64,000 nt of DNA, from contig CATOCA020000017.1 of the NCBI GenBank assembly GCA_951406725.2, positions 15,733 to 79,732 on the forward strand, given 5' to 3'. Below are positions 22,665-27,900 of the stretch, one piece after another; the stretch's first letter is position 1; every line of letters starts with the position of its first letter. Below the pieces are notes generated by a model, which saw nothing but the letters and a program-made list of their open reading frames with translations, was not told the origin of the DNA and searched no databases. The translations under genes were made by a program, and so were the position numbers. This DNA comes from Octopus vulgaris (lineage: Eukaryota).

Positions 22665-22957
22665 TTTCAAAAAGGTAATACAAAAGGAGAAGAAAGGGGA
22701 CTCTATACACCCCCTTTTTTTTGACCAGGCTCCCGTTGGCTTTTGTAGGGTTTTTTCCACCAGGAACCTTTCGAAACGTCTCCCCCTTTTGGGAGTTTTT
22801 CATTGTTGAATTTTATAAGTTGTTATAAAGATTTTTACTCGATGTTTTTAAAAAACGGCAAAACCCTTTGTAACCTTTCGTCCTGTCTTGTCCCTTTATG
22901 TAATCATGCGTGTCAGCCCTTGTGGCCAATAAAAAAGAATTGATTATTATTATTATT

Positions 22958-23453
22958 ATAATAGAAATATTAAAAGTACTAAGTCTCTCTAAAAGAGAAC
23001 AACGGCAGCGTTCCCGGAAAATATTAGTTATCGCCATACCAACATGGCATTCTTATAAAAATAAGAATAAAGCTGACCGCTTATTAGCTCCATGAGGCCA
23101 TCGCCTTAAGTTAGCTATTTGATACACAAACTGTATCCATATAACCTTTGAACAAGGGAGGTCAGTCGCTCCACACTACTTGGCCGGCAGCTACAGACGC
23201 GTTTCGGGGTATTGCCCCTTTTCAATGCAGCGTAGCCAAACCAGTAGGTGTCGCTTCTGACAATCTCTGTTCAAAGGTTTTATTTACCTAGCTTCGGTGG
23301 AATACATCCACTTGTTTTCAATAATAGAAATATTAAAATTACTAAGTCTCTCTAAAAGAGAACAACGGCAGCGTTCCCGGAAAATATTAGTTATCGCCAT
23401 ACCAACATGGCATTCTTATAAAAATAAGAATAAAGCTGACCGCTTATTAGCTC

Positions 23454-23456
<3 letters not shown>
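22958..23456 (-). mobile_element. Non-coding Penelope-like (pLTR) / retrozyme-like element: 363-bp unit plus 136-bp partial tandem repeat
   Basis: 22958-23093 is repeated at 23321-23456 with one mismatch. Contains a hammerhead motif and is flanked by (ATT)n on both sides. Confidence 0.7.
23190..23231 (-). ncRNA. Minimal type I hammerhead ribozyme (U3-A8 core variant)
   Basis: Minus strand reads GCUGCA-UUGAAAA-GGGG CAAUA CCCC-GAAAC-GC-GUC-UGUAGC: stem I, core, 4-bp stem II, GAAA, palindromic ACGCGU stem III, GUC cleavage triplet. Confidence 0.75.
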
Positions 23457-23528
<72 letters not shown>

Positions 23529-23550
23529 TATTGTTATTATTATTATTATT
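23456..23550. repeat. (ATT)n/(AAT)n microsatellite, 3' tail of the adjacent minus-strand SINE
   Basis: About 31 trinucleotide units with ATC/GTT variants. Confidence 0.95.
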
Positions 23551-23625
23551 CAGGTCACTGCCTGGAATCGAATTCGGAATCTTGGGGTTAGTAGCCCGCA
23601 CTCTTAACCACTACGCCATATGCCC
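23551..23625 (-). mobile_element. tRNA-derived SINE head / tRNA pseudogene
   Basis: Minus strand GGGCATATGGCGTAGTGGTTAAGAGTGCGGGCTACTAACCCCAAGATTCCGAATTCGATTCCAGGCAGTGACCTG: A-box TGGCGTAGTGG, B-box-like ATTCGATTCC, then an (AAT)n tail. Stems are imperfect. Confidence 0.75.
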
Positions 23626-23639
23626 ACGGGCATTTCAGT

Positions 23640-24935
23640 TAGGGAAGTGAAGGAAATCAGCCCAAAAATGGGCAACTGGAAGGCCCCGGGACCAGATGGA
23701 GTTCATGGCTACTGGATCAAAAGATTTGGTGGATGTCATGCACGAATACCTGCACAACTCAACACCTTGTTAAATGCTGACCAAGTAGCAGCAGAGTGGC
23801 TGACAATGAGTAGGACAGTGCTGTGCTTGAAAAACATCAAAAAAGGCAATGGGTAGACAATTACAGGCCGATATCCTGCTTGCCACTTATTGAGGAAATT
23901 ATTGACTGGAATACTCGCAGAGTCAATGTAAGGACATCTGGGGAAAATGGAATCCTGCCACATGAGCAGAAGGGGTGCAAGCGTAAGTGTAGAGGTACCA
24001 AGGATCAACTCCTGGTAGACAAAACTGCACTTAGAGACTGCAAGAGGAGGAAAAGTAACTTAGTCATGTCATGGTTAGATTATCGTACGGCATACAATAT
24101 GATCACACGTTGTTGGATTATGGAATGTATGAACCTATTTGGTATTGCACTGAATGTTGAGCGATTGCTTGGAAAAGTATGGCGAAGCGGAGGACGGACC
24201 TGACAGCATATAGAAGTTTAGGGACAATAGAAATCAGGAAAGGCATCTTCCAAGGGGATTGCCTGTCCTCAATGATCTTTGTGCTGTGCATGATACCACT
24301 CACACTGAATCTGAGGAAAGCAAACACTGGGTATGTATGTATTCAAAAGCCGCCAACAAAATATGAATCACTTGTTATTCATGGATGACCTCAAACTTTA
24401 TGGTAAAGATGAATCACAAGTCAGTTCCCTCGTTGATACGGAGTATACTTTCAGTGCTGATATCATAATGGAGTTTAGATTGAAAAAGTGTGGTGTGTTC
24501 GCCTTGAAGGCAAGCAAAATTGAATGTATGGACGGGCTAGCGATACCGTCGGGAGAGGTTACGGAGCAAATTAAAAGGCGAGATGCTGGAAATGGAGATA
24601 CTGGAAATGGATAAATTGATGGAGAAAGAAATGACAGAAAAATTTGAAGTGGAGTACTTGCGGAGACTTAGACTGATCCTTAAGTCGAAGTTAAACGGAC
24701 AGAGTAAGATTGAAGCTATCAAAACCTGGGCAGTTTCACTCCTGAGATATGGAGCAATGATAATCACATGGGCAATAGACGAACTAAATAGCTTAGACAG
24801 AAAGACAAGGAAGTTGCTAACTAAATATGGGATACTTCACCCAAAAAAGTGACAGAGACAGACTGTATGTACCAAGAAAATGAGGGTAGGACTGATGGGA
24901 TGCGAACATAGCATTAGAGCAGAAGAAAACAACAT
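23640..24935 (+). mobile_element. Degenerate R4/Dong-like (RLE-type) non-LTR retrotransposon, RT fragment
   Basis: Frameshifted motifs WKAPGPDGVHGYWIK, NYRPISCLP, EQKGCKRKCRGTKDQLL, KGIFQGDCLS, HLLFMDDLKLY. Confidence 0.8.
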
Positions 24936-24939
24936 AACA

Positions 24940-27900
24940 TGTCACATTCACCCACCTTTCAACAAACTTACTGGGTGACAGCACCTCTCTCTCCAGTCTC
25001 ACTTTCCTTTTCAGGTCCCACCTGAAAAGTTAATGAGGCCTTGGCTGAAGAGGAAGGCACCCGTCTTAAACCCTTTTAATCGCATCCACCACACAACATC
25101 TTTCGCCATAACCACCAAACAGAGAAAAAACTGCCTGTCCTTCTGGCCAAAGGAAAGGAGGCGTGGTGATTTAACACGATTAACTCAGACGATAACTGGA
25201 TCCATCCTACACATGACAATAACTGTTCGACAAAGCTCCACAAGTCAGTAATACGTGGAAACTGTACGAGAGCATGCACAACAGTTTCATCGCTCCGCGT
25301 GCATCTCAGACAAGCCTGTAGAGCTCATGCCTGTAGAGCTTATCGCGAACCGGCCGAGCCAATCCCACACCATCCCACCCAACCAACCCCAGTAGCACTA
25401 CCAGGCCAGGAATTTCTCGAAGTTATCCATAGGTCCCGGTCTGAAAGTCCTCCAGAAAAGACCAGCCAGTTGATCCCTCCTGATGCCCTGAACCGCTCCG
25501 AGAACATCGTCACTCTTGCCCTCCATTAATCCCCCATAGAACTCCAAGGTGGAACTTCCATCGACTTCCTTGCCCAACTGGCCGAGGGCTGTGACCATTT
25601 GGAGACACTCTAGGTGCCAAGAGACCCTCCTCGGTCGACGCCTGATCCAGAACTGTTGCCACGTCAAGGAGACGAGCTGCGAAAAAGCACGTCCAACAGC
25701 AACCACGCCTGCTCACTGTTAAGGTATTGCTGGAGATGTCGCTGCCTCAGTGCATGTCTACGCATCATCAGCCATGGCAAACCCAGTCCTCCATGCAACA
25801 GACTGTCTAACAAGCGATACCTGTCCCTTCCACAGGAAGCAGAAGTGTAAGCGCACCAGCTGAGCAAGAAACGACAGTCAGGCAGTAGTATATGACGGGT
25901 GCGATGTATGCATTCGCCACCTCCACCCGACCTTTCAGGAACAGCTTCCTCTCGGCCCATTTCTGGTTGAGACTGGCTACCCTGTCTGTCATCTCACCCC
26001 AGTTCTTGTCCACTTGGAGGTCCGGACCGAATCAGACCCTGAGCAACTTAAATAGTTCTTCTTCCAGCACCCCACAACGCTGTCTGTCGGTAAGGATCTG
26101 CCTCTCCACGTGCCGAGCTGTAAGCCCACTCACTTCTGGTTAATCATTGCTCCTGTTACTGCTTCGTATTCCTTTAGGATAGTGCCGACCATCTCGATTT
26201 CCGAGATGTTTGACACCATCACGTTGACGTCATCTGCATATGCCAACACGAACCTTCCGCATCCTAGTTTACGCCGGATGCCCCTCAAAACATCCAGCTT
26301 CCGCAGTAATGGCTCGAGTGCCAGTAGGTAGAGAAGGAGTGAGAGTGGACAACCATGTCAAACCGAATGTGCGATGCTAAATGATCCTGACATTTACTTT
26401 GACCACCGAAAAGATGTCGCTGTACATTGCAGCGATCCAGCCTCTGAAAACGGAACCAAAACCAGCCACCTTAAGGACAGCCTCCAAGTACCGATGGTTC
26501 ACCCTATCAAAAGCTCTCGATAGTGCCCTACCTATGCCAGGATCTTTACCAATCCTCTCTATTATGTATCGTGTGAGGTGGAGGTTGTTGTGGTTAGATC
26601 AGTCGGGGATAGTGCAAGTCTGCACATCATCCACCAGTCTGTCAACGACAAGCGCTAGCCTCTTTGCTAATACCTCGGCCAAAATTTTGTAATTTGCATT
26701 TAACAGAGTTACAGGCCTAAAGTTATCAACAATGTCACCCTTGTTCAGATTCTTTCTAAGTAGCGTCACCACACCTAGGCTCACAAATATGGAGTTTCTC
26801 TCATTTTGCTGCCAGTTGCAGTAGACACCTCATAAAAGCTCACTAAACAAGTCTTGCATACGATTATAAAGCACGAAATGTAGACCATCCAATCCCGGAG
26901 ACTTCTCCCTCGTGCAAGTAGCTAATGCAACACGTATATCTTCAGCTGTTATCGGCATTTCGCATCACTCCACATCGTTGGCCGAAAGCCACGGCAGACC
27001 ATCGAAGTAGGAAGTGAAGTTCACCTCTGCCTCCAGACCACCACACACCCTGTACAGTTTAACAAAGTGCCGCTGAAATTCTGCATAGACCTGTTTGGAC
27101 TTGTGTAGCATGGGCCCATCCTGACTCCTCAAAGACCGAATTTAGTTTTATTACCACTTTGCGTATTGCTCACCTAGGCCCATCGAATGGCTTTCATTCC
27201 CTCCTGTTTAAGTGCACATGCCCTAGTTCTGACACTGCAACCTCCATGCTTGGTTCTGAAGAATTGGTTCAGAACCTATCTCGCCGCCAGCACGTCGGTC
27301 GCTATGCCTCTACTGAATGTCGCTTCTGATTTCCTAACTAGGTCTCCCTCCACTCTAGTTTTCTCTATCATTAGTTCTCGACAAAATACTACAGCATCTA
27401 CTATCATCGACGTTTTAGGGCTACCCACCATCGGTTGTTGACTTGCACCCGTCGACTCTTGATGGACTAACTTGTTAAGTCGTTCTGAAATCTTGGTGTG
27501 CCGGGAAGGATGAGCTCAGCTTCCAGTATCTCGGTAGCCTGCCAATGAAGCCTATCAAGGTCAAATCTGTGATCTTTATAGCTGACTAGTTCGAATTGTA
27601 TACAACCTATGCTTTCCTTATCTGCTGGCCTACAAAACACCCTATCAAGATAAGACCTGGATGACCTGATGCTAAAGCCCATGTCCACACTTGGGCATAC
27701 AGGTAATCCAGTTTAAACCTGTCAGCCAGTTGGAATCGACTGAGCAGGTTTGCAAGGCTTTCGTACCCCGTTTTCTATTTGCTAGCTCCGCCCAATCCAC
27801 ACATGCATCGAAGATGGCGTTCCAGTCACCCACTAAACACAACAGAGTGACCAGTATAAAAGCATTAGCTTCATTATCGTTCACATCTAGGACCACTGGC

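What the first reader, a model, noticed from the sequence alone, without database searches (positions are those of the whole stretch)
22958..23456. Retrozyme/Penelope-like mini-element carrying a hammerhead ribozyme with compensated U3-A8 core
Seen: a 363-bp unit with a 136-bp near-perfect terminal direct repeat and no credible ORF. Minus strand 23231-23190 reads GCUGCA UUGAAAA GGGG-CAAUA-CCCC GAAAC GC GUC^UGUAGC, with predicted cleavage between 23196 and 23195. Known: C3 and G8 of the hammerhead core form a Watson-Crick pair, so UUGAAAA is a double compensatory change from CUGANGA. Minimal type I hammerheads with palindromic stem III (here ACGCGU) that act as dimers are described in Penelope-like pLTRs and metazoan non-LTR retrozymes. 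Inference: a young non-autonomous element, possibly copied from a ~363-nt circular or tandem RNA, that landed in the same ATT tract, antisense to the Tx1 array.
Basis: partly seen in the sequence, partly recalled or inferred. Interest (0 to 1): 0.72.

Follow-up and report, generated by a model that had tools for sequence, protein, structure and literature searches.

The report
Penelope-copied ribozyme repeat with swapped core
This is one cut-short copy of a protein-free repeat, present about two thousand times in this animal genome, that carries a predicted self-cutting RNA with a rare but known core swap, is likely pasted into TA repeats by Penelope-type enzymes, and is itself the exact landing site of a second jumping gene.

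Summary
Observation confirmed. The 499 bp are 1.37 turns of a 363-bp non-coding unit with a type I hammerhead; the "terminal repeat" is not an LTR. About 2,300 U3-A8 cores match in the genome; stems covary. U3-A8 is in print for Schistosoma Penelope elements (PMC4209133). In 96 loci, 153 of 170 arms end at two fixed points (unit 136 or 73), 144 of those in TA repeats; 48 of 49 classifiable inverted pairs combine one of each. This is the Penelope tail footprint. A young Penelope-like family here shares the core, target and two-end pattern, but no sequence. A Tx1 LINE sits at one base of the unit in 20 of 20 cases, where a weak snRNA-type promoter match puts +1. Cleavage, expression and circles are untested; copy ends do not pile up at the cut site. 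The window copy is atypical: one ribozyme, ATT target. Verdict: a non-LTR retrozyme, a known kind. This scan reported the same footprint and Tx1 targeting on other DNA before.

The parts
22958..23456 (-). Whole insertion: 1.37 turns of the 363-bp unit (unit positions 1-363, then 1-136), single arm
23094..23456 (-). One full 363-bp unit, 41% GC, non-coding, highly self-paired
22958..23093 (-). Second pass through unit 1-136; its end at 22958 is the family's long fixed end (unit 136)
22958..23020 (-). 63-nt 'tail' between the short fixed end (unit 73, window 23021) and the long fixed end; likely the stretch between two reverse-transcription starts
   Evidence: tail concept from PMC11167929
23190..23231 (-). 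Predicted type I hammerhead: helix I 6 bp, helix II 4 bp with 5-nt loop, helix III 2 bp inside a 6-nt palindrome
23219..23225 (-). Core U3-U4-G5-A6-N7-A8-A9 (U3-A8 in place of C3-G8); only N7 differs between subfamilies
23195..23196 (-). Predicted cleavage site (unit 261/262); cleavage not tested
   Evidence: hammerhead consensus
23139..23283 (-). Long rod that extends helix I; 5' ends of copies pile up at its base (unit 293-313)
23300..23319 (-). Weak snRNA-promoter-like (PSE) site, best of 726 positions; would put +1 at unit 197-203 (about window 23258)
   Evidence: inferred
23242..23258 (-). 17-bp target of a site-specific Tx1 LINE (unit 199-215); empty in this copy
23455..23550 (+). (ATT)n tract at the truncated 5' junction; a shorter ATT run (about 22944-22959, end of the Tx1 unit) lies at the other junction

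Best explanation
The window holds a 5'-truncated copy of a 363-bp non-coding retrozyme family whose copies lie in tandem and inverted arrays with two fixed ends in TA repeats, and which is likely copied in trans by a Penelope-like reverse transcriptase/GIY-YIG protein from a predicted self-cleaved, likely circular RNA. Shown: family size, tandem and inverted arrays, two fixed ends, TA targets, covarying stems, a Tx1 LINE fixed at unit 199/200. Inferred steps: (a) an snRNA-type promoter inside each unit starts transcription near unit 199 of arrays (about 0.55); (b) hammerheads in neighbouring units pair through the palindromic helix III, cut out monomers, and these close to circles (about 0.6); (c) a Penelope protein dimer cuts both strands of an AT-rich target and starts one cDNA at unit 136 and the other at unit 73, each running round the template until it stalls, often at the base of the long stem, and the two cDNAs join by microhomology (about 0.85); (d) the helper is the young 781-aa family found here (about 0.4). 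The window copy started at 136, made one turn and stopped at position 1; with one ribozyme it could not release a monomer by itself.
For: Family: 1,248 + 503 + 594 cores against controls 3, 3, 0; canonical C3-G8 version 19 against control 8. Ends: 84 long, 69 short, 17 other of 170 arms in 96 loci; among 62 abutting inverted pairs 48 long+short, 1 long+long, 0 short+short, 13 with one end elsewhere (p = 6e-14 for 48 of 49); the older subfamily at about 80% identity shows the same two ends. This matches two internal start sites and extension of both strands by a purified Penelope protein (PMC11167929) and the inverted arm plus one-sided tail (PMC8557442). Helper candidate: 781-aa RT + GIY-YIG frame open in 16 of 16 copies fetched for that property, U3-A8 hammerhead, 19 short and 6 long ends in TA repeats, one of each in both two-armed loci. 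Structure: 7 of 52 pairs change on both sides (shuffles 3.5; 1 of 500), helix I 97% and helix II 100% paired; the helix III palindrome switches as a double change (about 1,750 versus 594 cores; one intermediate 21); helix III has pairing probability 0.0 in the monomer but a 6-bp duplex forms between two copies. One template per insertion: 0.9% divergence within arms, 1.0% between inverted arms, 2.8% between loci; 11 locus-private variants shared by all passes (6 across both arms), 2 by some; 61 of 170 arms cross the cut site twice or more.
Against: No cleavage, transcript or circle was observed. 5' ends are not enriched at the cut site: 8 at unit 262, 10 at 268, 0 at 256; no ribozyme-site chimera with a Penelope element among 2 matches. 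No coding Penelope element shares sequence with the unit in 66 loci tested (only 150 of 6,136 GIY-YIG candidates were scored). The tail is 63 nt against about 35 nt in the candidate helper and 30-40 in print. In vitro, Penelope insertion did not need ribozyme cleavage (PMC11167929), and 8 of 9 frog retrozyme dimers did not cleave (10.64898/2026.07.22.740005). The promoter match is weak (5.6 bits; a minus-strand site scores 5.1; seven of eight held-out snRNA promoters score 8-19). The 96 loci were not drawn at random, and rows picked by core pattern cannot show core conservation. Homogeneous arrays could also come from a homogeneous linear source.
Confidence: 0.8

Rival explanations
1. Same Penelope-type mobilisation, but the template is an uncleaved multimeric linear transcript of a source array; the hammerhead is slow or only a protein-binding fold and circles play no part.
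For: No pile-up of 5' ends at the cut site; cleavage not needed for insertion in vitro (PMC11167929); low activity of PLE hammerheads (PMC4209133).
Against: 5' ends do not pile up at the inferred start either (4 of 165 at unit 197-203); private variants run through all passes and both arms (11 against 2); the palindrome and stems are kept by double changes.
Confidence: 0.3
2. The copies are stubs of the pseudo-LTR of a coding Penelope-like element that was not found, not an element in its own right.
For: Same tail and inverted-arm footprint; U3-A8 core shared with a coding family; frog retrozymes match pLTRs (10.64898/2026.07.22.740005); the GIY-YIG search was far from exhaustive.
Against: Arrays repeat the closed 363-bp unit up to 7.6 times; no coding Penelope sequence was seen to continue an arm in the loci compared; three subfamilies down to about 80% identity keep the same unit.
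Confidence: 0.07
3. A Tx1/L1-type LINE (the window's array, or the family that targets the unit) is the helper.
For: The window copy abuts a Tx1 array; one locus (L300) joins an inverted arm directly to a truncated Tx1.
Against: No poly(A) or shared 3' tail; internal fixed ends in TA repeats far from any Tx1 in nearly all loci; the targeting Tx1 makes its own 17-bp duplication inside existing arrays of several subfamilies.
Confidence: 0.04
4. Local tandem duplication or satellite DNA with a chance hammerhead-like word.
For: Rfam finds no hammerhead here.
Against: Dispersed copies on many contigs with fixed ends; covariation.
Confidence: 0.01

Closest known systems
Metazoan non-LTR retrozymes (Cervera and de la Pena 2020, PMC7229834; mussel 350-390 bp, axolotl 330/350 bp; Li, Clavereau and Pollet 2026, 10.64898/2026.07.22.740005)
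   Same: Short non-coding tandem unit, GC under 50%, one type I hammerhead per unit with weak palindromic helix III, strong self-pairing, co-occurrence with Penelope-like elements.
   Different: U3-A8 core; two fixed ends, inverted arms and TA targets are not described for retrozymes in the parts read; no sequence-related pLTR found here; expression and circles not shown here.
EN+ Penelope-like elements with tail and inverted pLTR (PMC8557442; Poseidon of Anolis in vitro, PMC11167929)
   Same: Inverted 5'-truncated arm, one-sided tail, two internal start sites, AT-rich or microsatellite targets, hammerhead.
   Different: No ORF; the tail is 63 nt, not 30-40; the repeat unit is closed on itself.
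U3-A8 minimal hammerheads of Cercyon PLEs in Schistosoma mansoni (PMC4209133, about 1,300 hits)
   Same: Same core covariation.
   Different: Here in a canonical 6/4/2-bp build inside a homogeneous tandem retrozyme, not a minimal, heterogeneous, mostly single motif.
Non-autonomous Chlamys elements such as MRC1 (PMC8557442, passage)
   Same: Non-autonomous, multicopy head-to-tail, Penelope-dependent.
   Different: They resemble their helper at the 3' end, and most Chlamys lack hammerheads.
Target-specific Tx1 LINEs: Tx1L in Tx1D, Keno in U2 genes, Tx1-Mar in Mariner-N4 (PMC4494074, passages)
   Same: A Tx1 family fixed at one site of another multicopy element; a sister family here abuts U2 +1.
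   Different: The target is a hammerhead retrozyme; two searches found no paper on that.

Membership tests
Metazoan non-LTR retrozyme | Short (150-450 bp) non-coding unit in tandem copies | tested here: met
   363 bp, arrays to 7.6 units, no ORF; the window copy itself has only 1.37 units
Metazoan non-LTR retrozyme | One type I hammerhead fold per unit | tested here: met
   Helices I and II at p of at least 0.93, covariation; core is the U3-A8 variant; no Rfam match
Metazoan non-LTR retrozyme | No true LTRs; GC under 50%; highly self-paired | tested here: met
   The repeat is a phase overlap; GC 41%; z = -5.8 as a circle. PBS and PPT were not searched for
Metazoan non-LTR retrozyme | Self-cleavage | not testable with these tools
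   Indirect genomic test (ends or chimeras at the cut site) gave no enrichment
Metazoan non-LTR retrozyme | Accumulates as circular RNA | not testable with these tools
   Only assembled contigs were on offer; they cannot show strand, ends or circles
Penelope-mobilised element | Two fixed 3' ends (tail) and inverted 5'-truncated arm | tested here: met
   153 of 170 arms; 48 of 49 classifiable pairs long+short
Penelope-mobilised element | AT-rich or microsatellite target | tested here: met
   144 of 153 fixed ends in TA repeats
Penelope-mobilised element | Sequence shared with the pLTR of a coding helper | tested here: inconclusive
   None in 66 GIY-YIG loci; only 150 of 6,136 candidates scored
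Autonomous Penelope-like element | ORF with RT and GIY-YIG | tested here: not met
   No ORF in the unit
Minimal PLE hammerhead (min-HHR, PMC4209133) | Long helix II (7-8 bp), short helix I (4-5 bp), extra base before helix II | tested here: not met
   Helix I 6 bp, helix II 4 bp, no extra base in the window subfamily

The most novel reading that the evidence does not exclude
A three-tier system: an RNA circle with its own snRNA-type promoter and a working U3-A8 hammerhead, written into both strands of a TA cut by a Penelope dimer from two fixed start points without sequence kinship to that helper, and parasitised by a Tx1 LINE derived from a U2-targeting lineage that lands on its transcription start to borrow the promoter.
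Probability: 0.35. Interest if true: 0.65.

Novelty: new variant of a known kind. Interest (0 to 1): 0.45.

Why it matters
How animal retrozymes are copied back into genomes is open: PMC7229834 names Penelope-like elements as candidates and the 2026 preprint says the mechanism remains to be worked out. Two fixed ends, paired one long and one short, give exact predictions (unit 73 and 136) for the in vitro assay of PMC11167929, with an intact candidate protein in the same genome. The family is also a natural test of U3-A8 activity and of dimer cleavage. Descriptors that demand C3-G8 would miss it. The class, the core swap and Tx1 targeting of other transposons are each known, and this scan has noted the same footprint in other families, which caps the surprise.

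Tried and rejected
Rfam: no hammerhead match. Expression: no RNA holder listed; runs guessed as RNA gave contigs over most of the unit but cannot show transcription, so they are not used. Helper by sequence: BLAST of the unit against 30 + 20 + 16 GIY-YIG loci gave only a neighbouring older retrozyme copy (L101) and hits at E of 0.03 or worse; a Penelope thumb-domain family that I recalled is not in the library. Canonical-core sister: 19 matches, none part of the unit. In vivo cleavage footprints: none above control. A-to-G editing fixed in copies: no excess (6 A>G, 4 T>C; 1 and 1 among 11 private variants). Donor-derived 5' flank at Tx1 insertions: 22 differences in 4,743 compared cells, as within arrays, so no conversion. 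A start at unit 214-216, suggested by 6 ends there: the snRNA anchor motif does not fit, and microhomology explains several. Whole-promoter alignments did not single out any start. Five 5' ends were BLAST breaks and were dropped (165 of 170 kept); 3' ends are unaffected. Literature: no paper on this family or on Tx1 in retrozymes; no rate for the U3-A8 double change found; Lunse et al. (PMC5785218) is not held. Supplements were not opened and Repbase/Dfam cannot be searched, so the family may already be catalogued.

Full report
Observation. The direct repeat is at 22958-23093 and 23321-23456, 136 nt, spacing 363, one mismatch. The minus strand carries the hammerhead as described. I number the unit from window 23456 downwards (unit position = 23457 minus window position). 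The unit has no ORF, is 41% GC and folds far better than shuffles (z -6.8; -5.8 as a circle, 60 shuffles). Rfam does not recognise it.

Family. A DNA search of the genome (G000, 2.8 Gb) gave 116 matches from 40 of 881 candidates, the full-length ones 96-99% identical and often 363 bp apart. Pattern counts: 1,248 cores as in the window (control 3), 503 with another base at the free position N7 (control 3), 594 in an older subfamily with a different helix III palindrome (control 0). The patterns differ in strictness and a few matches are unrelated motifs, so about 2,300 is an estimate. A C3-G8 version gives 19 (control 8), none inside the unit. Contigs of 8 runs laid, from five coded organisms, hold the family, several with a TA junction at window 23321.

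Ribozyme. The build is helix I 6 bp with an internal loop and a long rod beyond, helix II 4 bp, helix III 2 bp in a palindrome. That is the canonical metazoan form in PMC4209133 (parts 1-2 of 4 read), not the minimal form. The same paper reports U3-A8 in Schistosoma Penelope elements, about 1,300 hits. Across 19 distinct copies, 7 of 52 pairs change on both sides (shuffle mean 3.5, 1 of 500) and helices I and II stay 97% and 100% paired; relatedness and a structure derived from the window copy inflate this. The palindrome switches by a double change; the one intermediate counted has 21 copies; the other was not counted. Helix III does not form in the monomer model, while two copies give a 6-bp duplex, as expected for dimer cleavage. 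Activity is untested.

Insertion footprint. I mapped 170 arms in 96 loci, taken from the top and the first-listed matches, favouring arrays; this is not a random sample. 84 arms end at unit 130-138, 69 at 66-78, 17 elsewhere. Of 62 loci with two abutting inverted arms, 48 pair a long with a short end, 1 has two long, none two short, 13 have one end elsewhere; 26 loci are single-armed and 8 complex. 144 of the 153 fixed ends lie in TA repeats; the window is the only AAT case. Both ends follow a CTAWTAT word. The older subfamily shows the same two ends (30 loci listed, not tallied). PMC11167929 (parts 1-2 of 4) shows a Penelope protein cutting and extending both strands and starting at two internal sites that define the tail; PMC8557442 (passages) describes the inverted arm and one-sided tail. 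So the window's 136-bp repeat is a start at 136, one full turn and a stop at 1.

Template. 61 of 170 arms cross the predicted cut site at least twice, up to 7.6 units. Among 73 young loci, divergence is 0.9% within arms, 1.0% between inverted arms and 2.8% between loci; 11 locus-private variants run through all passes (6 through both arms), 2 through some, 171 are single. 5' ends cluster at unit 293-313 (39 of 170), the base of the long stem, and not at the cut site: 8 genome-wide at 262 against 10 at 268 and 0 at 256. A circle explains all this most simply; an uncleaved multimer from a uniform source is not excluded.

Helper. A GIY-YIG search (150 of 6,136 candidates scored) found a young family with a 781-aa RT + GIY-YIG frame and a cysteine motif in the linker, which PMC8557442 ties to the Neptune and Nematis clades; no tree was built. 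Its hammerhead also has U3-A8. Of 32 end motifs listed, 19 are short ends and 6 long ends in TA repeats and 7 are internal; both two-armed loci have one of each. Its tail is about 35 nt and contains CTATTAT or a one-base variant near the end. It shares no extended sequence with the unit, and other Penelope-like families in the genome also end in TA repeats, so the helper is not pinned down.

A LINE that targets the unit. An earlier scan note (e1-10356931) prompted a look at a 5.35-kb insert in L062: a Tx1-type LINE with 370-aa and 1,140-aa frames, 57% identical in ORF2 to the window's Tx1. All 20 matches to its 3' end, in 15 places, are followed by unit 199/200; 3 of them show only the duplicated target and then another copy. 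Full-length copies carry a 17-bp duplication (unit 199-215); truncated ones join with a duplication or by microhomology (16 stretches). Two further notes (e1-8672266, e1-8670392) proposed that this is an snRNA-type start. U1, U2, U4 and U5 genes here share an ATCAGT-type element at -55 to -61 (18 of 19 promoters used). A matrix from them scores unit 138-157 best of 726 positions, which puts +1 at 197-203, but only at 5.6 bits with a rival at 5.1. Two of 15 U2 loci carry a sister Tx1 (83% in the ORF2 part compared) abutting +1. This is suggestive, not shown. 42 of 96 loci have this site followed by two ribozymes; the window copy is not among them.

Context. The element sits between the ATT end of the last unit of a tandem Tx1 array and a longer ATT tract that looks like the tail of a tRNA-like SINE on the minus strand (by eye, ARAGORN finds no tRNA). 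The array is a different Tx1 family and nothing ties it to the retrozyme beyond a shared AT-rich site.

Comparison and verdict. It works like, and meets every testable feature of, a metazoan non-LTR retrozyme (PMC7229834, parts 2-3 of 6 and passages; 10.64898/2026.07.22.740005, parts 1-3 of 5); cleavage and circles could not be tested. Both papers propose Penelope-like elements as helpers; the two-end footprint for retrozymes did not turn up, nor Tx1 targeting of one, though Tx1 targeting of other transposons is in PMC4494074 (passages). PMC6765202 and PMC7151607 were seen as passages only. The scan's index holds the same footprint and Tx1 targeting for other stretches and no look-alike of this sequence. 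A new variant of a known kind; interest 0.45.

Noticed in passing
G000:C2:73040000-73070000 (L289, L290, L270-L274): Five or more copies of the retrozyme-targeting Tx1 stacked head to tail, separated by the duplicated target or by exactly one retrozyme unit.
   Followed up: partly
L324 and L331, upstream of U2 +1: A sister Tx1 family (83% amino-acid identity in the part compared) ends directly at the first base of U2 genes.
   Followed up: partly
L143-L158: Young Penelope-like family with an open 781-aa frame, U3-A8 hammerhead, long repeat-rich 3' region and about 1.4 kb between the upstream repeat and the ORF.
   Followed up: partly
L300:5280-7238 (minus strand numbering): An inverted retrozyme arm joins directly to a truncated Tx1 without target duplication: either a Tx1 insertion with deletion or Tx1 carried as a passenger.
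   Followed up: no
window 1-22959 and L063: Tandem array of about 5.8-kb Tx1/L1-type units, 94-97% alike, each ending in an ATT run, continuing beyond the window's start; an inverted, 68% similar Tx1 lies at 24946-27768.
   Followed up: partly
window 23554-23630 (minus) and 23640-24800 (plus): tRNA-like SINE whose tail is likely the ATT tract, followed by a broken reverse-transcriptase fragment that was not classified.
   Followed up: no
L002, L030, L225, L226, L228: Independent loci repeat the same inversion junction at unit position 1 joined to 214 or 262 through a CATG-type microhomology.
   Followed up: partly
L065, L066, L075, L079: A different, diverged family of small C3-G8 hammerhead-like motifs; L066 lies near a Penelope-like RT fragment.
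   Followed up: no
L199:1488-1620: 133 bp of unrelated sequence between the two arms of one insertion.
   Followed up: no
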